Shown here one piece after another: positions 2 through 47,430 of a DNA stretch of 64,000 bases. How positions within the stretch are numbered: the stretch's first letter is position 1; each line of letters starts with the position of its first letter. Source of the DNA: Jatrophihabitans sp. (lineage in GTDB: Bacteria > Actinomycetota > Actinomycetes > Mycobacteriales > Jatrophihabitantaceae); contig DASXYU010000085.1 in NCBI GenBank assembly GCA_036502295.1, forward strand, positions 387-64,386, read 5' to 3'. A program made the position numbers and the translations under genes. The notes under the pieces were generated by a model that ran no database searches, was not told the origin of the DNA, and was given only the letters and a program-made list of their open reading frames with translations.

Positions 2-568
2 GCCTACCTGGTGTTGATCGCGATGCCGATCCTCTACGTACTGATGCGGGCAATCAACAAGCACTACACGCGCGTCGCCGACGAGCTGCAGGTGGTCGAC
101 CGGGGGCTCGTCCTGCCGTCGCGCAACCACATCGTCGTGTTGGTGTCGAAGGTGCACAAGCCGACGCTGCGGGCGCTGGCCTATGCGCGAGCGGCCCGTC
201 CCGACACGTTGACGGCTCTCACCGTGAACATCGACGACGAATCGACGCGCGGACTGCTCGCAGAGTGGGAGCGGCTGGACATGCCGATTTCACTCACCGT
301 CCTCGAGTCGCCTTATCGCGAGATCACCCGCCCGGTGATCGGCTACGTGAAGAAGCTGCGCGCCGATCGTCCTCGCGACCTCGTGAACGTCTACGTCCCC
401 GAGTACGTCGTCGGGCACTGGTGGGAGCAGTTGCTGCACAACCAGACCGCGATGCGCCTGAAGGCGCGTCTGCTGTATCAGCCCGGTGTGATGGTGACGA
501 GCGTGCCGTGGCAGATGGAGTCGGTGGGGCATCCCGCGCAGCCGCCTGTCCCCCTCGATACGCACTGA
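2..568 (+). CDS. APC-family permease-like protein, C-terminal cytoplasmic domain (5' end outside window)
   Basis: The frame is open from the window edge to the stop at 566-568. It sits directly upstream of the RumA-like methyltransferase and dxs, as in other actinobacteria. Only about 188 aa are visible, so the family call rests on context. Confidence 0.5.
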   Translation, partial: AYLVLIAMPILYVLMRAINKHYTRVADELQVVDRGLVLPSRNHIVVLVSKVHKPTLRALAYARAARPDTLTALTVNIDDESTRGLLAEWERLDMPISLTVLESPYREITRPVIGYVKKLRADRPRDLVNVYVPEYVVGHWWEQLLHNQTAMRLKARLLYQPGVMVTSVPWQMESVGHPAQPPVPLDTH

Positions 569-570
569 GC

Positions 571-1830
571 ATGTTCACACCCGGCGACATCGTCGAACTG
601 GAGGTGGGCGCACCGGCCCACGGCGGATTCTGCGTGAGCCGGGTCGAGGGTCGAGGCGTCTGCTTCGTCAGCCATGCGCTGCCCGGTGAGCTGGTGCGGG
701 CGCGAGTCACCGAGGACCGCGGTGGCAGCTTCTTCCGCGCCGACGCGATCGAGGTCCTGCGTGCCTCGCCCGACCGGGTGACTCCGCCGTGTCCCCATGC
801 CGGTCCGGGGCGCTGCGGCGGCTGCGACTGGCAGCACGCGTCGGGCGATGCGCAGCGGCGGCTGAAGGAGTCGGTGGTCCGCGAGCAGTTCCGGCGCCTG
901 GCGAAGTATGAGCTGCCCGACTCGTTCCTCGTCGAGCCGTTGCCGGCGGGTAGCGGGGATGAGGTGTTGCTCGGCTGGCGGTCACGGATCACCTACGCGG
1001 TGGATGAGGACGGCCGGCCCGGGCTGCACAGGCATCGCTCCACGGAGGTCGAGCGCATCGAGCGCTGTCCGCTGGGTGTTCCCGGCGTCGGCGACAGCGA
1101 CGTCCTCGCGCAGCAGTGGCCGGGCCTGCTCGGCGTCGCGGTCGTACAGGACGGCACCGGTGAGCAGGCCGTCATCGCGCACCGACCCGGCGTCGGGCGG
1201 CAGAGCAGAGGACGGCGTCCTCCTGATCGGCTCGAGGTCATCGCAGGCGCGGAGACGCTCACCTTCCGCGTCCTCGGGCGCGAGCTGCAGGTCGCAGCCA
1301 CCGGCTTCTGGCAGGTGCACCCGAATGCGTTGCACACCTTCACGACTGCGCTGCTCGACGGCACGCGGCCGCAGCCGGGGGAGGGCGTCCTCGACCTCTA
1401 TGCCGGAGCCGGCGCGTTGACGGTGGCGCTGGCCGCCGCCGTGGGGCAGACCGGCCGCGCCGTGGGCATCGAGTCCGACCACCGCGCCGTCGCCGATGCG
1501 GCCACCGCTCTGGCGGCGATGCCGTGGGCCCGCGTCCTGCCCGGGCGCCTCGACGAGACCTCGATCGAGCGGATGCTCGAGCTCGCCGACCTGAGCCCGG
1601 ACGTCATCGTCCTGGACCCGCCGCGTGCCGGAGCCGGGCAGGCTGTGATGCGCGCACTGCTCGATCGCGGGCCGCGGGTGATCGGTTATGTCGCCTGCGA
1701 TCCCGCTGCGCTGGCCCGCGACGCGGCGGTGGCGTTCGCCGCGGGGTGGCAGCTGGATTCGTTACGCGGATTCGATGCTTTTCCGATGACCCACCATGTG
1801 GAGTGCGTCGCCACGTTCACACGGCTATGA
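571..1830 (+). CDS. Class I SAM-dependent RNA (uracil-5) methyltransferase, RumA/TrmA family with TRAM-like N-terminus
   Basis: ATG at 571, 3 nt after the upstream stop. Cys cluster CPHAGPGRCGGCDWQH, SAM motif VLDLYAGAGALT, and catalytic-Cys region YVACDPAALARD. The longer ORF from 265 is an Arg/Ala-rich extension overlapping the upstream gene. Confidence 0.85.
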   Translation: MFTPGDIVELEVGAPAHGGFCVSRVEGRGVCFVSHALPGELVRARVTEDRGGSFFRADAIEVLRASPDRVTPPCPHAGPGRCGGCDWQHASGDAQRRLKESVVREQFRRLAKYELPDSFLVEPLPAGSGDEVLLGWRSRITYAVDEDGRPGLHRHRSTEVERIERCPLGVPGVGDSDVLAQQWPGLLGVAVVQDGTGEQAVIAHRPGVGRQSRGRRPPDRLEVIAGAETLTFRVLGRELQVAATGFWQVHPNALHTFTTALLDGTRPQPGEGVLDLYAGAGALTVALAAAVGQTGRAVGIESDHRAVADAATALAAMPWARVLPGRLDETSIERMLELADLSPDVIVLDPPRAGAGQAVMRALLDRGPRVIGYVACDPAALARDAAVAFAAGWQLDSLRGFDAFPMTHHVECVATFTRL

Positions 1831-1850
1831 CAAAGGTAGGATTTCGGTCC

Positions 1851-3824
1851 ATGGCGCCAGTTCTCGACCGGATCGCGTCCCCAGCCGATCTTCGCAACCT
1901 GGACGGTGACGAACTTGCGCTGCTCGCCACCGAGATCCGGGACCTTTTGGTCGATTCGGTCTCGAAGCTGCGTACCGGCCACCTCGGGCCGAACCTCGGG
2001 GCGGTCGAGCTCACCATCGCCCTGCACCGCATCTTCGACTCGCCGACCGAGCCGATCCTCTGGGACGTCGGCCACCAGGCATACGTGCACAAGATCCTCA
2101 CCGGCCGCGCCGGGCAGATGGAGACGCTGCGCCAGAGGGGCGGCCTCTCCGGCTATCCGAACCGCGCCGAGAGCAAGCACGACTGGATCGAGAACTCCCA
2201 CGCCTCGACCGCACTGTCCTATGCCGACGGCATGGCGAAGGCATTCGAGATCCGCGGCGACTCGCGCCCCGTCGTCGCTGTGGTCGGTGACGGCGCCCTC
2301 ACCGGCGGCATGGTCTGGGAGGCGCTGAACAACATTGCCGGCGCCGACCGTCCGGTGATCGTCGTCGTCAATGACAACGGCCGCTCCTACTCGCCGACCA
2401 TCGGCGGTATCGCCGAGCGCCTCTCCGGCCTGCGGCTGCGTCCTGAGTACGAGCAGATGCTCGGCCGGGTGAAGCGCACCCTGAAACGCACCCCGGTCGT
2501 CGGCCAGCCGATGTATGACGCGCTGCACGGCATGAAGCGCGGCATCAAGGACGTCATCGCGCCGCAGGGGCTCTTCGAGGACCTCGGCCTGAAGTACCTC
2601 GGCCCGGTGGACGGGCATGACATCGCTGCCCTCGAGCACGCATTCACGCTGGCGCGCGGCTTCGGCGGCCCGGTAGTGGTGCACGCCGTCACCCGCAAGG
2701 GCTTCGGCTATGCCCCCGCCGAGAACGACGAGGCCGACCAGCTGCACCAGTGGAAGCCGCTTGACCCGGACACCGGCCGTGTCGTCCCCAAGGCGGGGCG
2801 CACATGGACCGCTGTCTTCAGCGAGCAGATCGTGGCGCTGGGCGAGGAACGCGATGACATCGTGGCCATCACCGCTGCGATGTGCGAGCCCACCGGCCTC
2901 GGTGAGTTCAGCCGTCGCTTCCCGCAGCGGTTCTTCGACGTCGGAATCGCCGAGCAGCACGCCCTCACCTCAGCCGCGGGGCTTGCCTCTGCCGGCCTGC
3001 ACCCTGTAGTCGCGGTCTATGCCACCTTCCTCAACCGCGCCTTCGACCAGCTGCTGATGGATGTCGCGCTGCACAAGCTGCCGGTGACGGTCGTCCTCGA
3101 CCGGGCCGGGATCACCGGCGATGACGGCCCGAGCCACAACGGCGTGTGGGACCTCGCCATCCTCGGAGTCGTCCCGGGTCTTAAGATCGCGGCGCCGCGC
3201 GACGAGCGGACGATGCGCGAGGAACTCGCCGAGGCCGTCGCGATCACGACACCGACGGTGGTGCGCTTTCCGAAGACGCCGATGGGCGAGTCGATCGCCA
3301 CGCTGCGCTCGGTCGGCGGAGTCGACATCCTCAGTGAGGACGGACAAGGTCACGTCGACGTTCTCATCATGGCGGTGGGGGCGACGGCGCGCGACGGGCT
3401 CGAGGCGGCGAACGCGGTTCGGCAGGCCGGTTACAGCGCCCGGGTCGTCGATCCGCGCTGGGTGCAGCCAGTGCCAGCGACGATGGTCGACCTCGCGAAG
3501 ACCGCCGGCCTCGTCGTGACCGTCGAGGACGGTGTTGTCACTGGCGGTGCCGGTTCGCGTTTGGCGCTGCGGCTTTCCGAGGTAGGACTAGACGTGCCGG
3601 TGCGCCATCTCGGGATGCCGGCCGAGTTCCCCGATCACGGCAGCGTCGCCGATGTGAAGACCTGGGCGGGACTGACCGTCCCCGACCTGGGTCGTCGGAT
3701 CGTGGAATGGGCGACGGTAGCCGTAACTCGCGGCGCACCCTCGCCCGAGAGCGAGGCGACGGCGGCGGGCGAACCGGGCTCGCCCTCGAAGGAGGAGAGC
3801 GCTGATGCGAGTACTGGTCATTGA
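1851..3824 (+). CDS. dxs: 1-deoxy-D-xylulose-5-phosphate synthase
   Basis: MAPVLDRIASPADLRNL N-terminus, GHLGPNLGAVELTIALH, and TPP motif GDGALTGGMVWEALN. AAAGGTAGG lies about 10 nt upstream of ATG 1851; alternative start at 1827. Confidence 0.93.
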   Translation: MAPVLDRIASPADLRNLDGDELALLATEIRDLLVDSVSKLRTGHLGPNLGAVELTIALHRIFDSPTEPILWDVGHQAYVHKILTGRAGQMETLRQRGGLSGYPNRAESKHDWIENSHASTALSYADGMAKAFEIRGDSRPVVAVVGDGALTGGMVWEALNNIAGADRPVIVVVNDNGRSYSPTIGGIAERLSGLRLRPEYEQMLGRVKRTLKRTPVVGQPMYDALHGMKRGIKDVIAPQGLFEDLGLKYLGPVDGHDIAALEHAFTLARGFGGPVVVHAVTRKGFGYAPAENDEADQLHQWKPLDPDTGRVVPKAGRTWTAVFSEQIVALGEERDDIVAITAAMCEPTGLGEFSRRFPQRFFDVGIAEQHALTSAAGLASAGLHPVVAVYATFLNRAFDQLLMDVALHKLPVTVVLDRAGITGDDGPSHNGVWDLAILGVVPGLKIAAPRDERTMREELAEAVAITTPTVVRFPKTPMGESIATLRSVGGVDILSEDGQGHVDVLIMAVGATARDGLEAANAVRQAGYSARVVDPRWVQPVPATMVDLAKTAGLVVTVEDGVVTGGAGSRLALRLSEVGLDVPVRHLGMPAEFPDHGSVADVKTWAGLTVPDLGRRIVEWATVAVTRGAPSPESEATAAGEPGSPSKEESADASTGH

Positions 3825-4542
3825 GGACGAGGTCCAGCTCGCCGAGGCCGTAGCCCGCGGCCTACGGCGCGAAGGCATGGCGGTGGACATCGCCGTCGAC
3901 GGCGACGAGGGCTACCGCAAGGCGGTATCGACGCGGTACGACGTGCTGGTGCTCGACCGCGACCTGCCGGGGATGAGCGGGGATGACATCTGCCGCAAGG
4001 TCTCCGGCGAGAGCGAACTGACACGCGTGCTGATGCTCACTGCGAGCGGCACTGTGCGCGACAAGGTCGAGGGACTGGAGCTCGGCGCTGACGACTACCT
4101 GCCGAAGCCCTTCGCCTTCGCGGAGCTGGTTGCCCGCGTCCGCGCGCTCGGTCGGCGCTCGACGCCGGCCGCTCCGCCCGTCCTCGCCGTGGACGACGTA
4201 GTCCTCGACCCGGCCAAGCGGACGGTGACACGCAGCGAGCGTCCGGTCGACCTCACCCGCAAGGAGTTCGGTGTGCTCGAGACGCTGCTCTCGGCACAGG
4301 GGGCAGTGGTGAGCAGCGAGGAACTGCTGGAGCGGGTCTGGGACGAGCACGCCGACCCGTTCACCACCACGGTTCGCGTCACGATGATGACGCTGCGCCG
4401 CAAACTCGGTGAGCCCGCGCTCATCGACACCGTTGTCGGTTCCGGCTATCGGATCGACCCGGGCATCGGCTCGATGGATGACGTGGCGGATGACGTGGCG
4501 GAAGGCGCCGGCACGACGCCGGACGGCGCCGCCAGCGCATAA
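3805..4542 (+). CDS. OmpR/PhoB-family response regulator
   Basis: GGAGGAG RBS 7 nt upstream of the ATG. Receiver domain (VLVLDRDLPGMSG, LMLTA) plus winged-helix output (TRKEFGVLETLL). Overlaps the dxs 3' end by 20 nt. Confidence 0.92.
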   Translation: MRVLVIEDEVQLAEAVARGLRREGMAVDIAVDGDEGYRKAVSTRYDVLVLDRDLPGMSGDDICRKVSGESELTRVLMLTASGTVRDKVEGLELGADDYLPKPFAFAELVARVRALGRRSTPAAPPVLAVDDVVLDPAKRTVTRSERPVDLTRKEFGVLETLLSAQGAVVSSEELLERVWDEHADPFTTTVRVTMMTLRRKLGEPALIDTVVGSGYRIDPGIGSMDDVADDVAEGAGTTPDGAASA

Positions 4543-4546
4543 CACC

Positions 4547-5608
4547 GTGCGCCTCGTCCGTCCGACGCTGCGCTTTCGCATGGCGTTGTTGTACGGCGCG
4601 CTCGTCCTACTCGTCGGTATCGCGATGCTGGTCGTCGCGGGCCTTCTGCTGAATGCTGCGCTTGACCGGCCGACGCACAGCGACGCCCTGAACTACCTGG
4701 TGACGTGGGGGTTGATCTACTTCGCGATCATCGTCCTGGCCGCGGCCGTCGCGGGCTATCTGCTGGCGAAGCAGGCGTTGCGTCCCATCGCGGCGCTCAC
4801 CCGGACCGCGCAGTCGCTCTCCACCGACAACCTCAACCAGCGCATCGAGCTGGAGGGACCGGCCGATGAGTTGCGTGAACTGGCGGACACCTTCGATGAG
4901 ATGCTCGGCCGGCTCAACGCGGCCTTCGACAGCCAGAAGATGTTCGTCGCCAATGCCAGCCACGAACTGCGCACGCCGTTGTCGGTGATCAGGACCGAGC
5001 TCGAGGTGACGCTGAGTGACCCCGACGCGGACGTCACGGAGCTGCGCCGCATGGGCGATGTGGTGGCCGGTGCGACGGACCGCGCGCAGCGGCTGGTGAC
5101 GTCGCTGCTGACCCTGGCTCGCTTGCAGGCGGTGCAGACCGGCGCGCTGGAGGTCCGCGAGGAGGTGGAGCTTTCGGCGATCGTCCCGCACGTCCTCGAC
5201 GCGGTGGCGGGGGAGGCCGAGGCGAAGGGCATCACGGTCGAGACGGAGCTCGAAACGTCGACGACGATCGGCGATCCTGGACTGCTGGAGCGGCTCATCG
5301 GCAACATGGTCGAGAACGCGATCCGGCACAACACTCCCGACGGCTGGCTGCGCATCACCACGCGGCAGACCAACGATCGGGCGTGGCTGCACGTGTCCAA
5401 CGGTGGGGCGGTCATCCCGCAGTCCGATGTGGACGCCTTGTTCCAGCCGTTCCGGCGCGGAGGACGGTCTCGGACGGCGACACGAGGCGCCGGGCTCGGG
5501 CTGGCGATCGTGCGCCTCATCGTGGAGGCGCACCGCGGCAAGGTGCAGGCCGTGGCGCCGCCCTTCGGCGGCCTCGCGATCCGCATCGAACTCCCACGAC
5601 CTGCCTGA
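4547..5608 (+). CDS. Sensor histidine kinase (2 TM, HAMP, HisKA, HATPase_c)
   Basis: H-box FVANASHELRTPL, N-box IGNMVENAIRHN, G-box GAGLGLAIV. GTG at 4547 lies 5 nt after the regulator stop; alternative ATG at 4580. Confidence 0.9.
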   Translation: MRLVRPTLRFRMALLYGALVLLVGIAMLVVAGLLLNAALDRPTHSDALNYLVTWGLIYFAIIVLAAAVAGYLLAKQALRPIAALTRTAQSLSTDNLNQRIELEGPADELRELADTFDEMLGRLNAAFDSQKMFVANASHELRTPLSVIRTELEVTLSDPDADVTELRRMGDVVAGATDRAQRLVTSLLTLARLQAVQTGALEVREEVELSAIVPHVLDAVAGEAEAKGITVETELETSTTIGDPGLLERLIGNMVENAIRHNTPDGWLRITTRQTNDRAWLHVSNGGAVIPQSDVDALFQPFRRGGRSRTATRGAGLGLAIVRLIVEAHRGKVQAVAPPFGGLAIRIELPRPA

Positions 5609-5640
5609 GCAGCATTCGTAACGATTCATGTCCTGCTTGG

Positions 5641-6414
5641 TCAGACGCCGTTGGCGCCTCCGTCGACGAAGAAAAGAGAGCCCGTCGAGAACTTGGAGGC
5701 ATCCGATAGCAGCCAAGCGGCTTGTTCGGCGATGTCCTCGGGTTGACCGACGTGCCCGATGGGCTGGCCGTCTTCGAGCGCTTTGGCGAGTACTGGGTCA
5801 TGTATGACGGCTTCGAGCATAGGAGTGTGGATCGTGCCGGGCAGGATTGCATTGACTCGGATGCCGCGAGAGGCATACTCCAGCGAGGCAGATCGAGTCA
5901 GCCCGACAACTCCGTGCTTGCTGGTGACGTAGGCGGGCATGCCGGGTTCGGCCTTGTACCCAGCCAGAGAAGAGGTGTTCACGATCGATCCACCGCCATG
6001 TTCGAGCAGGTAGCTGATCTCATGCTTGAGGCAGTAGAAGATGCCGGTCAGATTGATGCCCAGCGTCCGGTTCCAGTCCTCGGCGCTGGTTCGGTGCAGC
6101 TCGGATTGGGGCCCGACTCCGGCATTGTTGAACGCGCCGTTCAGACCGCCGAATGCCTTCACCGTGTGAGCAACCAGTGCCTGGACATCGGCTTCCGACA
6201 ACACGTCGGTGTGTACGAACAGTGCCGTGCCGCCGTCGGCCTCGATCTGCTTGACCGTCAGTTCGCCGCCTTCGTCGTTGACGTCTGCGACGGCTACCGC
6301 CGCCCCTCGGGCTGCGAGCAGAATTGCGGCTGCGCGGCCGATGCCGCTCCCGGCGCCGGTGACAATCAGGGACTTTCCCGTGAGGTCGAGCATGCGATAA
6401 GCGGTGTTTGTCAT
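5641..6414 (-). CDS. SDR-family oxidoreductase
   Basis: TGAGSGIGRA Rossmann motif, NAG, and catalytic YVTSKHGVVGLT. Confidence 0.9.
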   Translation of the reverse strand: MTNTAYRMLDLTGKSLIVTGAGSGIGRAAAILLAARGAAVAVADVNDEGGELTVKQIEADGGTALFVHTDVLSEADVQALVAHTVKAFGGLNGAFNNAGVGPQSELHRTSAEDWNRTLGINLTGIFYCLKHEISYLLEHGGGSIVNTSSLAGYKAEPGMPAYVTSKHGVVGLTRSASLEYASRGIRVNAILPGTIHTPMLEAVIHDPVLAKALEDGQPIGHVGQPEDIAEQAAWLLSDASKFSTGSLFFVDGGANGV

Positions 6415-6478
6415 TGCGTCCTCCTAGATCTTGATACGGATGTTTTCGTCCTCGACGGCTGTTCGGCGTTACTGGCCA

Positions 6479-7618
6479 CTACGTGATCACGCCTGACTCA
6501 CGAAGTACGGCCAAGTCGGCCTCGGTGTAGTCCAGTTGCCGCATAATCTCTAACCCGTCAGTCGGTATAGCGCCGGCGGCGACACCAGTTGCAGTAGCGG
6601 AAAACCGCGGTGCCGGTGCAGCTACCGGTTTGCCTTCGAACTCGGCGTAGGCATGCCGTGCGGCATTGTGCGGATGTGCTGGGGCTTCGGTAAGGGTCAG
6701 GACAGGCGCTACGCACGCATCCAGGGGAGTAAATAGTTCTGCCCACTCGTCACGAGTTCGGGTCCTGAAGGCGTCGGTGAGCCATGACTGCAAGACGAGC
6801 GCCTGTCTGTGGTCGTACGGTGATGGCACGGTGGCCGAATCGGAGCCGAGGGCGTTGCAGAGTGTCGCCCAAAACTGTGGCTCAATAGCGCCGATTGCCA
6901 CCCAGCGACCATCGGCACACTCATAGCAACGGTAGTTCGGGCTGCCGCCGTCGAGCAGATTCGACTCCCGCTCGTCACGCCACGAACCAGAGTCGAGCAG
7001 TGTCCGTGTCATCGTTCCGAGGTACGCGGCACCCTCCGTCATCGCAGCGTCGAGCACTTGACCGACACCGGATTCTCGGGCGTGAAGTATTGCTGCCAAC
7101 AACCCCATGCCCAGCACCAGTGAACCACCGGCAAGGTCTGCCAGGTAGTTCACCGGTGGCACCGGTGGTCCCTGCCTCGCGCCGATCCCGTGTAACAGAC
7201 CGGAGATGGCGAGGTAGGTGATGTCGTGACCCGCGGTGCGCGCGAGCGGCCCGTCCTGGCCCCAACCGGTGAGTCGTCCGTAGACGAGGCGACGGTTGCG
7301 GGAGAGCACTTCGTCGGGGCCGACACCGAGCCGCTCGGCGACGCCGGGGCGAAATCCCTCTATCAACGCATCGGATCGTTCGGCGAGGCGAAGAACCACC
7401 TCGCTCGCCCCGTGCGCTTGGAGGTCCAACTCAAGCTGTCGTCGTCCTCGGCCGAGTGGGCCTCCGACGAAGACCTCCTCGAGGCCACTGCGCTTTGCGC
7501 GCGGCTTTTGGATTCGGACCACCTCCGCACCGAGGTCAGCCAGCATCATGCCGAGGAACGGCACGGGTCCAATCGCAGGCAACTCCAGCACGGTTACACC
7601 GCTGAGCGGTCCATTCAT
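6479..7618 (-). CDS. Family III CoA-transferase (CaiB/BaiF), alpha-methylacyl-CoA racemase-like
   Basis: The N-terminus MNGPLSGVTVLELPAIGPVPFLGMMLADLGAEVVRI closely resembles the MCR/Amacr N-terminus. A strong GAGGAGGAAGG RBS overlaps the stop of the upstream permease gene. Confidence 0.85.
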   Translation of the reverse strand: MNGPLSGVTVLELPAIGPVPFLGMMLADLGAEVVRIQKPRAKRSGLEEVFVGGPLGRGRRQLELDLQAHGASEVVLRLAERSDALIEGFRPGVAERLGVGPDEVLSRNRRLVYGRLTGWGQDGPLARTAGHDITYLAISGLLHGIGARQGPPVPPVNYLADLAGGSLVLGMGLLAAILHARESGVGQVLDAAMTEGAAYLGTMTRTLLDSGSWRDERESNLLDGGSPNYRCYECADGRWVAIGAIEPQFWATLCNALGSDSATVPSPYDHRQALVLQSWLTDAFRTRTRDEWAELFTPLDACVAPVLTLTEAPAHPHNAARHAYAEFEGKPVAAPAPRFSATATGVAAGAIPTDGLEIMRQLDYTEADLAVLRESGVIT

Positions 7619-44338: not shown

Positions 44339-45418
44339 TCAGCGGGCGAGCCCCGGGACGATCTCGGCGAGGTCGAAGTCGACCGGTTGTTCCAGTTGGT
44401 CGTAGGTACAGCTGCGCGGGTCGCGGTCGGGGCGCCACCGGTTGAACTGCGCGGTGTGCCTGAAGCGCCGCCCCTCCATGTGGTCATAGCGGACCTCGAC
44501 GACACGTTCAGGACGCAGCGGGACGAAGGAGAGGTCCCTGCCGTTGTTCCAACGCGAGCCGGCCCCCGACCGGGGCGTGCGGGTGCCCTGCTCGACTTCG
44601 GCCCAGTTCCACGGATGGTCGGCGAACTCGGCGAGCAGCGGTTGGAGCTCGACGAAGAGTTCTCGCCTCGTCGCCAACGGAAAGGCGCCGATAACGCCGA
44701 CGGAGGCGAGACTGCCGTCCTCGGCGTAGAGGCCGAGGAGCAGGGAGCCGATCGCATCGGTCTCGTTGCGATAGAGGCGGTAACCGGCGACGACGCAGTC
44801 GGCCGTGCGCTCGTGCTTGAGCTTGAACATCACGCGCTTGTCGGGCTGGTACGTGCCGTCGAGGGGCTTGGCGATGATGCCATCGAGTCCGGCGCCCTCG
44901 AATTCGGTGAACCAGCGTCGCGCTTCGTCCTCGTCGCGGGTCGCGGGGGTGAGGTGCACCGACTTGCCAGGCGAGGCGAGGACGGACTCAAGCGTGGCGC
45001 GGCGTTCGCCGAACGGGCGCATTGTCAGATCTTCGTCGCCGAGGGCGAGCAGATCGAAGGCGATGAACTGCGTCGGGGTCTTCTCGGCGAGCATCTGCAC
45101 GCGTGAATCGGCCGGATGAATGCGCTCCTGCAGCGCTTCGAAGTCGAGACCGGTGGAGGTCGCGATGACGATCTCACCGTCGAGGACGCAGCGAGGTGGT
45201 GTCTCGGCGCGGATCGCCTCGACGAGTTCCGGAAAGTAGCGCGTCAGTGGCTTCTCATTGCGGCTGCCGAGCTCGACATCGTTGCCGTCCCGAAAGATGA
45301 TGCTGCGGAACCCGTCGAATTTCGGCTCATAGTGGTAGGCGCCCGCGGGCAGCTTCTCGAGGCTGGGGATCGCCTTGGCGAGCATCGGGGAGAGCGGCGG
45401 CATCACCGGAAGGTCCAT
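44339..45418 (-). CDS. ligC: ATP-dependent DNA ligase, LigC type
   Basis: Adenylation motif I EPKFDGFR plus downstream nucleotidyltransferase/OB motifs. ATG 45418 is supported by alignment with the two upstream 5' copies and by a GAGG RBS. Confidence 0.9.
   Translation of the reverse strand: MDLPVMPPLSPMLAKAIPSLEKLPAGAYHYEPKFDGFRSIIFRDGNDVELGSRNEKPLTRYFPELVEAIRAETPPRCVLDGEIVIATSTGLDFEALQERIHPADSRVQMLAEKTPTQFIAFDLLALGDEDLTMRPFGERRATLESVLASPGKSVHLTPATRDEDEARRWFTEFEGAGLDGIIAKPLDGTYQPDKRVMFKLKHERTADCVVAGYRLYRNETDAIGSLLLGLYAEDGSLASVGVIGAFPLATRRELFVELQPLLAEFADHPWNWAEVEQGTRTPRSGAGSRWNNGRDLSFVPLRPERVVEVRYDHMEGRRFRHTAQFNRWRPDRDPRSCTYDQLEQPVDFDLAEIVPGLAR
45312..45418 (-). repeat. Direct repeat copy A (ligC codons 1-36) of the 107-nt repeat
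   Basis: By eye, 105/107 nt are identical to 46224-46330 (offset 912 nt). Confidence 0.9.
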
Positions 45419-45435
45419 CGCCTCACGGTATTGCG

Positions 45436-45867
45436 CTACTGCCGCTGAAGCCACAAGGCGAGACTCGGAGTAGTCCACGTGGCGATCCCGGTACCGAGCA
45501 AGTCGTTGTCTTGAGTCCAGATCGCTGCATCGAGCGCTAGGGCACAGGCGACCAAAGGCCAGTCGTCAGGATCGCGAAGCGAACGAGACCGGGCTTCGTC
45601 CTCAAGCGGCGCAAGCACCGCGCTCTCGACGAGCGCGATGTTCGTATCGACGGCGGTCAGGCACAGCTCGCTGAGAGCCGTGGCATCCTGAGTGCCCAAG
45701 CCATGACGCCGACAGAATCCGCTCACGCGACGGGGCAGCTCATGGCGGAACTCACTGTGAGTCTGCTCTGGAAGGAATAGCTCAAGTGCGCCATGGGCGA
45801 GTCGCTCGCGGCCAGCGACTCGCAGCAACTCAGCCAACAGAACGCTTGCATCGACAACCAGTCGCAT
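45436..45867 (-). CDS. PIN-domain toxin (VapC-like)
   Basis: MRLVVDASVLL... with acidic PIN residues (D6, DPDDWPLVA, TQDNDL). ATGA overlap with the upstream antitoxin gene. Confidence 0.85.
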   Translation of the reverse strand: MRLVVDASVLLAELLRVAGRERLAHGALELFLPEQTHSEFRHELPRRVSGFCRRHGLGTQDATALSELCLTAVDTNIALVESAVLAPLEDEARSRSLRDPDDWPLVACALALDAAIWTQDNDLLGTGIATWTTPSLALWLQRQ

Positions 45868-46118
45868 CAGGAGCGGCGCCGTCGTGGCCGGGAGATATCG
45901 GCCGCCACTTCATCCTCGGTCAGTCCGGTGCGCGCGTAGATATCCTCCAACGCGGCCCCGAGGCGTCCAAGCGCCTCATGTCCGGACGGGCGATCCATCG
46001 CGTGAACTGGAACGTAGAAACCAACAGGAGTGCCGTGCCGTTCCACCACGAGCGTCTCGCCACCTGCGAGCAGCGTTGTGGCGTGATCCTTAAAGTCGCG
46101 AACACCTACGTGCTTCAT
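45867..46118 (-). CDS. Phd/YefM-type antitoxin
   Basis: MKHVGVRDFKDHATTLLAGGETLVVERHGTPVGFYVP is a typical Phd N-terminus. GGAGGAGG RBS present. Confidence 0.85.
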   Translation of the reverse strand: MKHVGVRDFKDHATTLLAGGETLVVERHGTPVGFYVPVHAMDRPSGHEALGRLGAALEDIYARTGLTEDEVAADISRPRRRRS

Positions 46119-46207
46119 GACGCACCTCCTCCGGTCGTCGGGCGATCGTTATGGCTACCAGTGTAGTCACAAGATTCGCTTCTATGCCGTTCGAAAGCGG
46201 AGCACCG

Positions 46208-46330
46208 TCAACAGCGCCGAAAGCCGTCGAATTTCGGCTCATAGTGGTAGGCGCCCGCAGGCAGCTTCTCGAGGCTGGGGATCGCCTTGGCGAGCATCGG
46301 GGAGAGCGGCGACATCACCGGAAGGTCCAT
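46208..46330 (-). pseudogene. Displaced ligC 5' fragment, copy B (40 codons, ends FRRC*)
   Basis: MDLPVMSPLSPMLAKAIPSLEKLPAGAYHYEPKFDGFRRC*. Near-identical to ligC codons 1-36. The RBS is lost (GAGG becomes GTCG). Confidence 0.9.
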
Positions 46331-46377
46331 GACGACACGGTAGGCGATTGCATACGGGGCCGATGAGTTGCGGAGAA

Positions 46378-46394
46378 GCGCTACGATGTAGCGC
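46378..46394 (+). promoter_or_regulatory. Perfect 7-bp inverted repeat abutting the antitoxin start codon
   Basis: GCGCTAC-GAT-GTAGCGC lies immediately 5' of ATG 46395. Candidate autoregulation operator or translation-occluding hairpin. Confidence 0.4.
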
Positions 46395-46817
46395 ATGACT
46401 AGTCCATTGTCGATCAGGTTCGACAAAGCGCTGTTGGAGCGACTTCGTCGGCGGGCGGTCATCCAGGACTCGACTCCATCGGGCTTGGCGCAGCGGCTCG
46501 TGGATGAGGGTCTGCGCGCTCAGGAACATCCCGGCATCGTGTTCAAGGACGGTCCTTCTGGTCGTCGGGCGGCGCTGGTGGCGGGACCAGACGTCTGGGA
46601 GGTTGTCGCCGCGGTCGGCGGCTCCGGTGTGAAGGATGAAAGGCGGGCCGTGACGGTCGTCTCCCAAGAGCTCTCCCTATCAGCGGGACAGGTTCGCCTC
46701 GCGCTGGACTATTACGGTGCATACTCCGAGGAGATTGACGCGCAGATCGCGGAGAACCAACTCGCGGTGACTGAAGCGCTGGCTGCCTTTCGGGCACGGC
46801 AGCGGCTACTTGCGTGA
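46395..46817 (+). CDS. RHH + DUF433-like putative antitoxin
   Basis: N-terminal CopG-like IRFDKALLERLRRRA and a C-terminal DUF433-like pattern (HPGIVFKDGPSGRRAALVAGPDVWEVV...LSAGQVRLALDYY). Confidence 0.7.
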   Translation: MTSPLSIRFDKALLERLRRRAVIQDSTPSGLAQRLVDEGLRAQEHPGIVFKDGPSGRRAALVAGPDVWEVVAAVGGSGVKDERRAVTVVSQELSLSAGQVRLALDYYGAYSEEIDAQIAENQLAVTEALAAFRARQRLLA

Positions 46818-47176
46818 CGGTCAGACTGCTGCTTGACGAACACTTCTCCGAAGTCATTGCCGAGCGCCTGCGTCAACTTGGGCACGACGTTGTCGCGGTT
46901 GTTGCCGACCCGTCCTTGCGTGCTCAGCCTGACGCTGAGGTCTATCGATGGGCAGCGGTAGAAGGACGTCGGGTTGTGACCGAGAACGTCAAGGACTACC
47001 GCCCGTTGCTGCTCGGCGCGTACGAGAATCACGACCCGGTGGCGCCGTTGCTGCTTGTCGCGTCAGGGAGATTTCTGCGAGGGGGCCGCCGCGCATCCGC
47101 GGTCGTCTCGGCGCTGGAGAAGTGGCTAACCCGAACCAGCGCCGGTAGTCGCCCTTACGAGGATTGGCTGATCTGA
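46814..47176 (+). CDS. DUF5615-family PIN-like putative toxin
   Basis: The start overlaps the antitoxin stop. VRLLLDEHFSEVIAERLRQLGHDVV is a typical DUF5615 N-terminus. Confidence 0.75.
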   Translation: MTVRLLLDEHFSEVIAERLRQLGHDVVAVVADPSLRAQPDAEVYRWAAVEGRRVVTENVKDYRPLLLGAYENHDPVAPLLLVASGRFLRGGRRASAVVSALEKWLTRTSAGSRPYEDWLI

Positions 47177-47190
47177 AGCTCGCCGAATAC

Positions 47191-47310
47191 CTACAGGCAA
47201 CAGCGCCGAAAGTCGTCCCACTTGGCTTCGAAGTGGAACTCGCCTTTCGGCAGCCTCTCGATGCTGGCAACAGGCTTCGCCAGCATCGGCTTGATCGGCG
47301 GCATCACTGG
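47191..47310 (-). pseudogene. Diverged ligase 5' fragment, copy C (39 codons, ends FRRCCL*)
   Basis: V-DLPVMPPIKPMLAKPVASIERLPKGEFHFEAKWDDFRRCCL*. Motif I is degenerated (KWDDFR). GAGGA RBS retained. Confidence 0.8.
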
Positions 47311-47430
47311 CAAGTCCACGTCCTCAACGCTATTCGCCAGGGACTGCTCGCAGTACGTGAAGCGCTGGCAGGGCGAATACGGCGTGTCGCCCTGCCAGCG
47401 CTTCACGAGCGAGTGAGTCGGTGGTTGCGG

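What the first reader, a model, noticed from the sequence alone, without database searches (positions are those of the whole stretch)
46209..47212. Identical 15-nt junction CAACAGCGCCGAAAG behind both truncated ligase fragments
The plus-strand 15-mer CAACAGCGCCGAAAG occurs at 46209-46223 and again at 47198-47212. In both cases it sits exactly where similarity to the intact ligase stops; the intact gene has GATGATGCTGCGGAAC at 45296-45311. Copies B and C are otherwise only roughly two-thirds identical at the nucleotide level, so a perfectly conserved junction 15-mer is not what drift would leave. It looks like a shared cassette end or recombination core. On the gene strand it reads CTTTCGGCGCTGTTG. 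In the first cassette it runs into TTGACG, a -35-like hexamer upstream of the phd antitoxin gene. Caveat: TTTCGG also occurs 15 nt further into the intact gene (IIFRDG), so the exact crossover point is ambiguous by about 15 nt.
Basis: seen in the sequence. Interest (0 to 1): 0.6.

Follow-up and report, generated by a model that had tools for sequence, protein, structure and literature searches.

The report
Serine-recombinase site ending toxin-antitoxin cassettes
The repeated 15 bases are the inner part of the docking site that one family of serine recombinases uses to insert mobile DNA into a DNA-repair ligase gene; here they mark the ends of two tiny toxin-antitoxin cassettes that carry no recombinase of their own.

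Summary
CAACAGCGCCGAAAG occurs exactly twice in the window and in the 2.4-Mb assembly. Each copy sits directly behind a truncated ligC 5' fragment.

The interpretation (cassette end or recombination site) is supported and can be made sharper. In 14 of 14 loci from relatives and metagenomes, a clade of large serine recombinases (LSRs) lies next to a ligase 5' fragment or a regenerated ligase 5' end. The break always falls at the GAC codon of ligase motif I (KxDG).

I aligned 15 such junctions without gaps. TTG at +15..+17 and T at +22 are invariant, and G at +21 is found in 14 of 15. The other positions vary. The 15-mer covers +3..+17 and ends on the invariant TTG. Both window copies continue with GT at +21/+22. 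So it is the proximal part of a roughly 22-24-nt element-side (P') half-site.

Each of the two units (912 and 989 nt) holds only a toxin-antitoxin pair, a P' arm and a replacement ligase 5' end. The same LSR-less TA cassettes occur in one other genus and in one metagenome locus.

The exact 15-mer was not found elsewhere, and no cognate LSR is in this assembly. Earlier notes of this scan describe TA arrays separated by gene-end copies in other genomes, without a recombinase link.

The parts
44339..45418 (-). Intact LigC-type ATP-dependent DNA ligase. In att terms this is attR: the first 105 nt act as the replacement P arm, and the rest of the gene is B'.
   Evidence: Pfam DNA_ligase_A_M plus DNA_ligase_A_C cover the full length. 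NCBIfam NF006078 scores 553.8 bits against a cut-off of 296.
45312..45418 (-). 5' end of the intact ligase (copy A), from the ATG to GACGG. GAC is at 45314-45316. This is the presumed element-borne P arm of the TA1 cassette.
   Evidence: 105/107 identical to fragment B, and similarity stops about 15 nt upstream of the ATG. It resembles the P arms next to G287-type LSRs.
45436..45867 (-). PIN_2 toxin gene, cargo of cassette TA1. Its stop codon lies 17 nt before the ligase ATG.
   Evidence: Pfam PF10130, E = 1.9e-28. The gap was computed.
45867..46118 (-). 83-aa ORF upstream of and abutting the PIN gene. It is a putative antitoxin by position only.
   Evidence: ORF. No hit in Pfam, NCBIfam or PDB.
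46202..46225 (-). P' half-site no. 1 (gene strand GGCTTTCGGCGCTGTTGACGGTGC). The 15-mer at 46209-46223 covers positions +3..+17.
   Evidence: The register and the invariants (TTG at +15..17, GT at +21/22) come.
46224..46330 (-). Truncated ligase 5' fragment B (codons 1-36, MDLPVM...EPKFDG). Together with P' no. 1 it reads as an attP-like P+P' site.
46395..47176 (+). Cargo of cassette TA2: a 140-aa RHH-like putative antitoxin (46395-46817) and a DUF5615 PIN-like toxin (46814-47176).
   Evidence: Pfam PF18480, E = 3.1e-12, and a weak RHH_5 hit. The pair is conserved in G120 at 74% and 61% aa identity and 69% nt identity over window 46378-47182. There it lies away from any ligase.
47191..47214 (-). 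P' half-site no. 2 (gene strand GACTTTCGGCGCTGTTGCCTGTAG). The 15-mer at 47198-47212 covers positions +3..+17.
47213..47319 (-). Truncated ligase 5' fragment C (VDLPVM...AKWDD). It is the outermost and oldest displaced 5' end, and with P' no. 2 forms an attL-type junction.

Best explanation
The 15-mer is positions +3 to +17 (counted after the GAC codon of ligase motif I, KxDG) of a roughly 22-24-nt element-side half-site (P'). This half-site belongs to the attachment site of a clade of large serine recombinases (LSRs). These LSRs integrate mobile elements into the motif-I coding segment of LigC-type ATP-dependent ligase genes.

The element's attP is a short mimic of the ligase 5' end (P arm: short leader plus about 36 codons) joined at G|A of GAC to the P' arm. 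After integration, the P arm regenerates an intact ligase (attR). The displaced old 5' end is left truncated and fused to P' (attL).

The window records two such insertions stacked in tandem: fragment C + P' | TA2 | fragment B + P' | TA1 | intact ligase. Each inserted unit is minimal. It holds one toxin-antitoxin pair packed directly between a P' arm and a P arm, with no recombinase.

Shown:
- the repeat itself;
- the common breakpoint;
- the conserved register of P';
- the linkage of this junction type to LSR genes elsewhere;
- the absence of a cognate LSR in this assembly.

Inferred:
- that the two cassettes entered by LSR action supplied in trans, or are minimal derivatives of LSR-bearing elements;
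- that the perfect 15/15 identity, next to diverged flanks, reflects recognition by one and the same LSR specificity;
- the order of insertion.
For: (1) There are two exact copies in the window and the assembly, each 2 nt after the GAC of a truncated ligase fragment.

(2) Truncated ligase 5' fragments ending at the same codon recur in other genera.

(3) In G023 and G287, 18.6-kb and 24-kb islands lie between such a fragment and the intact ligase. Their LSR gene (Resolvase + Recombinase + Zn ribbon) sits 24-47 nt from the regenerated ligase ATG. The two LSRs are 39% identical.

(4) I examined 12 further loci with homologues of the two LSRs, and all 12 sit beside a ligase 5' fragment or the 5' end of a ligase gene (L146 is cut by its contig end): L137-L144 and L145-L148.

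(5) L142 shows an uninterrupted attP inside element genes: CTACGGTCAAC, then 30 nt, then GTTGACCGTAG. This is a perfect 11-bp inverted repeat centred on G|A of TGGGAC.

(6) An ungapped alignment of 15 junctions after GAC/GAT gives TTG at +15..17 in 15/15, T at +22 in 15/15 and G at +21 in 14/15. Neighbouring positions are variable. A 16th junction (L133 f1, with a degenerate codon) also fits by eye. The window's two arms fit, including GT at +21/22 beyond the 15-mer.

(7) Intact ligase genes read CGT at +15..17 and CC at +21/22, so P' is not ligase sequence.

(8) LSR-less units made only of TA genes and bounded in the same way occur in G058 (HigBA) and in metagenome loci L133/L134 (PIN/Phd + MNT/HepT, and TacAT). 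Within L133 the two P' arms also resemble each other (20/27).

(9) The G120 homologue of TA2 delimits the TA module at 46378-47182. That leaves only P' (about 30 nt) on one side and 47 nt plus fragment B on the other.
Against: - No LSR gene is in the window. The only serine recombinase in the 90%-complete assembly is split into two ORFs, lies at tRNA-Val and is unrelated to the ligase-targeting clade.
- The exact 15-mer in ligase context was found nowhere else: not in 142 family genomes, 185,579 species genomes or the JGI metagenomes. So no cognate recombinase can be named.
- The window's P arm shows little dyad symmetry with its P' arm, only GCCGAAA/TTTCGGC, and part of that is forced by the E-P-K and F-R codons.
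- A-B identity of 105/107 would also fit a plain duplication.
- Junctions from related elements are not fully independent, so the invariant columns partly reflect shared ancestry.
- No recombination was observed.
Confidence: 0.75

Rival explanations
1. The 15-mer is still an LSR P' arm, but the cassettes were never mobile units. They are what is left of two full-size LSR islands after internal deletions. The TA pairs survived because losing them is lethal, and the P arm survived because the ligase needs it.
For: Full-size islands with the same junction type exist (G023 18.6 kb, G287 24 kb). TA genes occur in or near such islands (L139, L140). A truncated PIN remnant lies upstream of the G058 fragment, which shows decay at these loci. 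No LSR remains here.
Against: Five independent LSR-less units (two in G000, one in G058, two in L133) all hold TA genes and nothing else. Their cargo abuts P' within 21-55 nt and abuts the P arm within 17-64 nt. Random deletions should leave assorted debris and variable end points. In the window, P' identity is perfect over +3..+17 yet lost beyond it, apart from the family-wide invariant positions. That pattern looks like selection on a recognition site, not neutral decay.
Confidence: 0.3
2. No site-specific recombinase was involved. Circular or linear foreign DNA carrying a ligase 5' segment entered by homologous (Campbell-type) recombination, or by 'insertion with long target duplication'. 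The 15-mer is merely inherited from a common ancestor of the incoming DNA.
For: A and B are a 105/107 direct repeat flanking TA1. No recombinase is present. Earlier notes of this scan describe similar TA arrays between gene-end copies without recombinases in other genomes.
Against: The break is at the same codon in every locus. The sequence after it keeps invariant bases at a fixed register across elements whose other positions, cargo and LSRs have diverged to 39-50% identity. The same junction type is physically linked to LSR genes in 14 of 14 loci. C differs from B by 32%, too much for homologous crossover.
Confidence: 0.1
3. Local duplication or gene conversion copied one fragment-plus-junction onto the other, so the identity is recent and has no function.
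For: The two copies lie 989 nt apart in the same orientation. A and B show that near-identical copies can coexist here.
Against: The identical tract is only 15 nt long and is bounded by mismatches on both sides. The adjoining ligase codons are 68% identical. A conversion tract that short and that precisely placed is implausible, and it would not explain the fit to the cross-genome register.
Confidence: 0.05
4. The 15-mer is a promoter or operator element of the TA operons (TTGACG as a -35 box).
For: In cassette TA1 the last TTG runs into TTGACG about 90 nt upstream of the antitoxin ATG.
Against: In TA2 the 15-mer lies 21 nt past the 3' end of the convergent toxin gene. In G058 and L133 the conserved TTGAC also lies at the 3' ends of the cargo.
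Confidence: 0.02

Closest known systems
Large-serine-recombinase integration systems (phage Bxb1 / phiC31 type attP x attB; Bxb1: PMC1470463)
   Same: The LSR has Resolvase, Recombinase and zinc-ribbon domains. The attP is about 50 bp with dyad symmetry about a central dinucleotide (L142). There are hybrid attL and attR junctions, and integration is into a protein-coding gene.
   Different: The target here is ligase motif I, which I did not find reported. The attP carries a leader plus about 36 codons that regenerate the target gene. In the window, the units bounded by the sites have no recombinase.
SCCmec / pseudo-SCC composite islands at the 3' end of rlmH (orfX), moved by the Ccr LSRs (from general knowledge, not checked here)
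   Same: Serine recombinases are involved. Elements are stacked in tandem at one gene end. Repeated integration-site sequences mark each element boundary, and some array members lack the recombinase.
   Different: This is a different phylum and target, and it involves the 5' rather than the 3' end of the gene. The units here are about 0.9-1 kb and hold only TA genes.
CIMEs and tandem accretion of integrative elements (ICESt1/ICESt3 type); Islander principle of a displaced fragment plus a regenerated target (PMC4383910)
   Same: Non-autonomous elements keep both att sites. Successive integrations give arrays punctuated by target-gene fragments.
   Different: Those systems use tyrosine integrases with an identical core in attP and attB, mostly at tRNA 3' ends.
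Islands integrated in the 5' end of dusA (PMC4482086)
   Same: Integration is into the 5' end of a housekeeping gene, with the element supplying a replacement 5' end.
   Different: Those use tyrosine integrases, and the islands are large and carry their own integrase.
Chromosomal integron cassette arrays with TA cassettes
   Same: Arrays of small promoter-bearing TA cassettes are separated by a repeated recombination site.
   Different: There is no IntI, attI or attC. The separator is a coding-gene fragment plus an LSR half-site.
Insertion with long target duplication
   Same: An addiction-type gene pair is flanked by a direct repeat of about 100 bp of the target (A/B, 105/107).
   Different: Here the insert end carries a conserved recombinase half-site, and the break point is fixed to one codon across genera.

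Membership tests
attP/attL half-site of a large serine recombinase system | LSR gene linked to the site in this genome | tested here: not met
   No LSR is in the window. The only Resolvase/Recombinase ORF in the assembly is split, lies at tRNA-Val on contig C90, and matches the ligase-targeting clade only at 32% identity over 56 aa.
attP/attL half-site of a large serine recombinase system | The same junction type is linked to LSR genes in related loci | tested here: met
   14 of 14 LSR loci examined lie beside a ligase 5' fragment or a regenerated 5' end (L146 is cut by its contig end).
attP/attL half-site of a large serine recombinase system | Conserved half-site positions at a fixed distance from the crossover | tested here: met
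   TTG at +15..17 (15/15), T at +22 (15/15) and G at +21 (14/15). Both window copies conform.
attP/attL half-site of a large serine recombinase system | Dyad symmetry of P and P' about a central dinucleotide | tested here: inconclusive
   Symmetry is perfect in L142 (11-bp arms) and good in G023. In the window only GCCGAAA/TTTCGGC is symmetric about the same G|A, and part of that is imposed by codons.
attP/attL half-site of a large serine recombinase system | Hybrid junctions: a displaced target fragment fused to element DNA, and the target regenerated at the other end | tested here: met
   Fragments B and C are truncated at codon 36-37, and the ligase is intact.
attP/attL half-site of a large serine recombinase system | Recombination at the site by the enzyme | not testable with these tools
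   This needs an in vivo or in vitro assay.
Non-autonomous att-flanked element (CIME / pseudo-SCC type) | Both att junctions present, with no recombinase or transfer genes inside | tested here: met
   The units of 912 and 989 nt hold only a TA pair, P' and a P arm.
Non-autonomous att-flanked element (CIME / pseudo-SCC type) | Mobilisation in trans by the recombinase of an autonomous relative | not testable with these tools
Integron gene cassette | IntI integrase and attI next to the array | tested here: not met
   The four tyrosine-recombinase hits in the assembly lie on other contigs: C90, C22, C15 and C86.
Integron gene cassette | attC: an imperfect palindrome at each cassette end | tested here: not met
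   The separators are collinear copies of ligase codons 1-36 plus a 24-nt arm, not attC-like palindromes.
Insertion with long target duplication | A long direct repeat of the target flanks the insert, and the insert end has no specific site | tested here: not met
   The repeat is present for TA1 (105/107) but is only 68% for TA2. The insert ends carry the conserved P' arm.
Type II toxin-antitoxin modules (cargo) | A toxin domain plus an adjacent small partner gene | tested here: met
   PIN_2 (E = 1.9e-28) with an abutting 83-aa ORF. DUF5615 (E = 3.1e-12) with an overlapping 140-aa RHH-like ORF, and this pair is conserved in G120. The 83-aa partner has no family hit, so its antitoxin role is positional only.

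The most novel reading that the evidence does not exclude
The LSR-less toxin-antitoxin units are not debris. They are a dedicated class of trans-mobilised gene cassettes: each is a TA pair wrapped in a complete P/P' attachment site, captured serially at the ligC gene by a serine recombinase encoded elsewhere. That would be an integron-like cassette platform run by a serine rather than a tyrosine recombinase. It might also explain some of the 'recombinase-less' TA arrays between gene-end copies that this scan keeps finding.
Probability: 0.25. Interest if true: 0.8.

Novelty: new variant of a known kind. Interest (0 to 1): 0.6.

Why it matters
This turns an unexplained repeat into a testable recombination site. 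It predicts a roughly 50-bp attP, a crossover at G|A of the KxD codon, and five key bases in the P' arm.

It also identifies a clade of serine recombinases whose target is one of the most conserved DNA segments of ATP-dependent ligase genes, and whose attP rebuilds the gene it cuts. I found no report of this target.

Finally, it gives a concrete mechanism for how minimal toxin-antitoxin cassettes can pile up at one gene without carrying a mobility enzyme. Such site-specific, gene-preserving integrases are also of practical interest as landing-pad tools for actinobacteria.

Tried and rejected
- Exact 15-mer in 142 family genomes: 4 hits, all in unrelated coding contexts, against 1 hit for the reversed control.
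- GAYGRN + 14-mer in all species genomes and in the JGI metagenomes: 35 and 57 hits, none behind a ligase fragment.
- The looser pattern AARTNNGAYGRNTTTNNNCGNNNTTGAC in 401 genomes of the order: only the window's own B junction. The pattern was too narrow, since the true invariants are fewer.
- A search for called short proteins like fragment B: one hit only, but it led to the L133/L134 array.
- The G023 LSR against G000, G058, G086, G099 and G106: no match. Against the phage and plasmid collections: nothing above 29% identity.
- The own-genome LSR on C90 was rejected as the cognate enzyme: it is broken, lies at tRNA-Val and is unrelated to the clade.
- Literature searches for ligC or an ATP-dependent ligase as attB: nothing.
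- The 'class III' junctions (TTCCTTCACTGAACTTGTCAAG) first looked like the same family. They have a different register and belong to elements with two tyrosine recombinases.
- The integron, promoter and gene-conversion readings were rejected for the reasons given under the rival explanations.
Full report
**Observation**

CAACAGCGCCGAAAG occurs at 46209-46223 and 47198-47212 and nowhere else in the window, even allowing 2 mismatches. It occurs nowhere else in the 2.42-Mb, 130-contig assembly.

On the gene (minus) strand the locus reads:
- fragment C (47319-47213, VDLPVM...AKWDD);
- the 15-mer;
- a convergent RHH-like/DUF5615 pair (46395-47176, + strand);
- fragment B (46330-46224, MDLPVM...EPKFDG);
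- the 15-mer;
- an 83-aa ORF plus a PIN_2 toxin gene (46118-45436);
- 17 nt;
- the intact ligase (45418-44339).

The ligase is a full-length LigC-type enzyme (NF006078, 553.8 bits).

Over the 107 nt from the start codon to GACGG, A and B are 105/107 identical. C is 74/107 identical to A and 73/107 to B. The 15 identical bases are bounded by a mismatch on each side.

**The exact 15-mer is private to this genome**

The four other hits in 142 family genomes lie in unrelated coding contexts. All 35 hits in the species-genome collection and all 57 in the metagenome collection, for GAYGRN plus the 14-mer, also lack a ligase fragment. The next results show that the conservation lies at another level.

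**The breakpoint recurs**

I searched the first 38 ligase residues against the family and the order. This found short open frames covering residues 1-37/40 only. All end right after KxDG(F)(R), in several genera. The same-genus genome G038 has a plain ligase with no cassette.

G058 has the same architecture as the window: fragment, then a HigB/HigA pair, then the intact ligase.

A metagenome locus (L133/L134) has fragment, PIN/Phd + MNT/HepT, fragment, TacT/TacA, intact ligase. A LigD-type Prim-Pol gene lies downstream.

**A recombinase is linked to this breakpoint**

In G023, 18.6 kb separate the fragment from the intact ligase. In G287 the distance is 24.4 kb. In both, a 527-536-aa protein with Resolvase, Recombinase and zinc-ribbon domains is encoded divergently, 24-47 nt from the regenerated ligase ATG. 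The two proteins are 39% identical.

In G023 the regenerated N-terminus (…PITWEQFLALKVYVQVEPKWDG) is unlike the family norm. The displaced fragment is normal, as expected if the element brings its own 5' end.

I then took homologues of both recombinases from the protein collection and read 12 of their loci:
- In L137, L138, L139, L141, L143 and L144, a ligase fragment is followed within 20-60 nt by the LSR gene.
- In L140 and L142, a fragment lies divergent to the LSR gene.
- In L145, L147 and L148, an intact ligase lies divergent, 15-40 nt away. L146 is cut by its contig end.

With G023 and G287, that makes 14 of 14 loci.

Source names place several of these in Nocardioides. Some elements carry a TrwC relaxase.

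L142 has element-type small genes on both sides. Its fragment has the element-type PITWEQ N-terminus fused to a P' arm, so it appears to be an unintegrated attP. The site reads CTACGGTCAAC, then 30 nt, then GTTGACCGTAG. This is a perfect 11-bp inverted repeat whose centre falls between G and A of TGG|GAC.

**What the 15-mer is**

I aligned 15 junctions without gaps from the base after GAC/GAT. This gives TTG at +15..+17 in 15/15, T at +22 in 15/15, G at +21 in 14/15 and G at +1 in 14/15. Positions +6..+14 and those beyond +23 are nearly random. A 16th junction (L133 f1, whose GAC codon has mutated) also fits by eye.

The window's arms are:
- GGC TTTCGGCGCTGTTG ACGGTGC
- GAC TTTCGGCGCTGTTG CCTGTAG

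The 15-mer covers +3..+17 and ends on the invariant TTG. Both arms continue with G and T at +21/+22.

Intact ligase genes read CGT and CC at those positions, so the arm is not ligase sequence. The TTTCGG inside the 15-mer only imitates the Phe-Arg codons. In other elements the arm diverges from the ligase immediately after GACG (L137 GACGTATTC, L139 GACGAAATC, G023 GACGACATT).

The TTGAC is conserved where the cargo's 3' end faces it (G058, L133, TA2) and where a recombinase gene follows. Its reading as a -35 box is therefore incidental.

**Mechanism proposed**

The attP is a P arm (a ligase leader plus about 36 codons) joined at G|A to a P' arm. Integration into the motif-I segment of a resident ligC regenerates the gene from the P arm. 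It leaves the old 5' end truncated against P'. A second integration into the regenerated gene displaces the first P arm in turn.

The window then reads: attL (C+P'), TA2, P+P' (B + 15-mer), TA1, attR (A + gene body).

The two units are 989 and 912 nt long. The G120 homologue of TA2 (69% nt identity over 46378-47182) shows that nothing but the TA module lies between the arms. In TA1 the toxin stop is 17 nt from the ligase ATG.

The two P' arms are identical over +3..+17. They differ at +2, +18, +20, +23 and beyond, keeping only C at +19 and the family-wide G and T at +21/+22. The adjoining ligase codons of B and C are 68% identical.

That pattern is what selection by a single recombinase specificity would leave. 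It is not what drift, a short conversion tract or two random deletions would leave. In L133 the two arms of one array also resemble each other (20/27). On both sides, the window's arms are closest to those of the G287-type elements (P arm CTAC..TATGAGCC; P' 15/22).

**What is not shown**

- No cognate LSR is in the window or the assembly (90% complete). The one serine recombinase present is split into 304-aa and 145-aa ORFs, abuts tRNA-Val and is unrelated to the clade.
- Mobility of the LSR-less units is inferred, not shown. They may be trans-mobilised cassettes or minimal derivatives of larger islands.
- Five of five such units (two in G000, one in G058, two in L133) contain only TA genes, tightly packed between the arms. 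This argues for more than random decay, but the sample is small. They were seen in 2 of 142 family genomes and none were noticed in the order sample, whose match list was only partly shown.
- The junction set is partly phylogenetically related.
- The tool for public reads was closed, so I could not look for empty sites or circles.

**Comparison with what is known**

The recombinase and site architecture are those of large-serine-recombinase integration systems. Regenerating the target from element DNA, with a displaced fragment marking the far end, is the Islander principle (PMC4383910). It is known for the 5' end of dusA with tyrosine integrases (PMC4482086).

Tandem stacks that include recombinase-less members resemble CIME accretion and, from my own knowledge, pseudo-SCC elements at rlmH.

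Three features differ:
- the target, ligase motif I, for which three literature searches found no report;
- the long gene-mimicking P arm on a serine-recombinase attP;
- units that consist of a TA pair and att arms only.

No close relative of these LSRs is in the phage or plasmid collections (29% identity at most).

Earlier notes of this scan describe TA arrays separated by gene-end copies in other genomes. They mostly attribute these to homology-driven insertion. Here a recombinase link can be made.

**Verdict**

I file this as a new variant of a known kind: a serine-recombinase integration module with a new, gene-preserving target, and non-autonomous TA cassettes bounded by its sites.

Noticed in passing
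L129 (G338:C6) 902-7578; also L022, L023, L024, L025: A second, unrelated kind of element hits almost the same spot. In G338 a 5.6-kb element splits a ligase gene 7-9 nt downstream of the LSR crossover (fragment at 7578-7477, remainder of the gene at 1858-908). It carries two tandem tyrosine recombinases (392 and 841 aa, Tn554-like layout) and its own complete ligase gene. The same end sequence, TTCCTTCACTGAACTTGTCAAG, follows ligase fragments in G086, G099 and G106.
   Followed up: partly
window 47356-47407: A perfect 15-bp-stem palindrome (GCGCTGGCAGGGCGA...TCGCCCTGCCAGCGC) lies between fragment C and the DUF1003 gene. Copies 79-91% identical are on at least five other contigs of the assembly (C81, C88, C12, C117, C92). 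It is either a REP-like repeat or a shared terminator.
   Followed up: no
L133 596-3546 (metagenome ERZ27256362; also L134): A ligC array with two displaced fragments and three TA modules of different families (PIN/Phd, MNT/HepT, TacAT). The outer fragment's KWD codons have decayed (AAGCGGGGC), but its P' arm is intact.
   Followed up: partly
L136 (G000:C90) 732-2328: The assembly's only serine recombinase is split into 304-aa and 145-aa ORFs with the zinc-ribbon part missing. It abuts tRNA-Val (701-775), so it is probably the dead integrase of a tRNA-targeting element.
   Followed up: partly
L022 (G099:C319) 242-1489: A ligase 5' fragment lies inverted, 69 nt from the start of a ligase gene that itself seems frameshifted near residue 150. 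This may be a recombinase-mediated inversion or an assembly artefact.
   Followed up: no
L010 (G058) 361-615: A C-terminal remnant of a PIN toxin gene sits between the RibD_C-like neighbour gene and the displaced ligase fragment. This suggests an older, decayed cassette.
   Followed up: no
window 45418-45438: The ligase ATG is 17 nt behind the PIN toxin stop, with no visible terminator. The ligase is probably now co-transcribed with the TA1 operon, as another first-stage note also said.
   Followed up: no
L066 (G120:C1) about 3932-4900: The TA2 homologue in G120 is not at a ligase. ORFs just beyond it read like a translated tRNA-type sequence (…GIEPASS…), so it may sit in a tRNA-associated islet. 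I did not run a tRNA search there.
   Followed up: no
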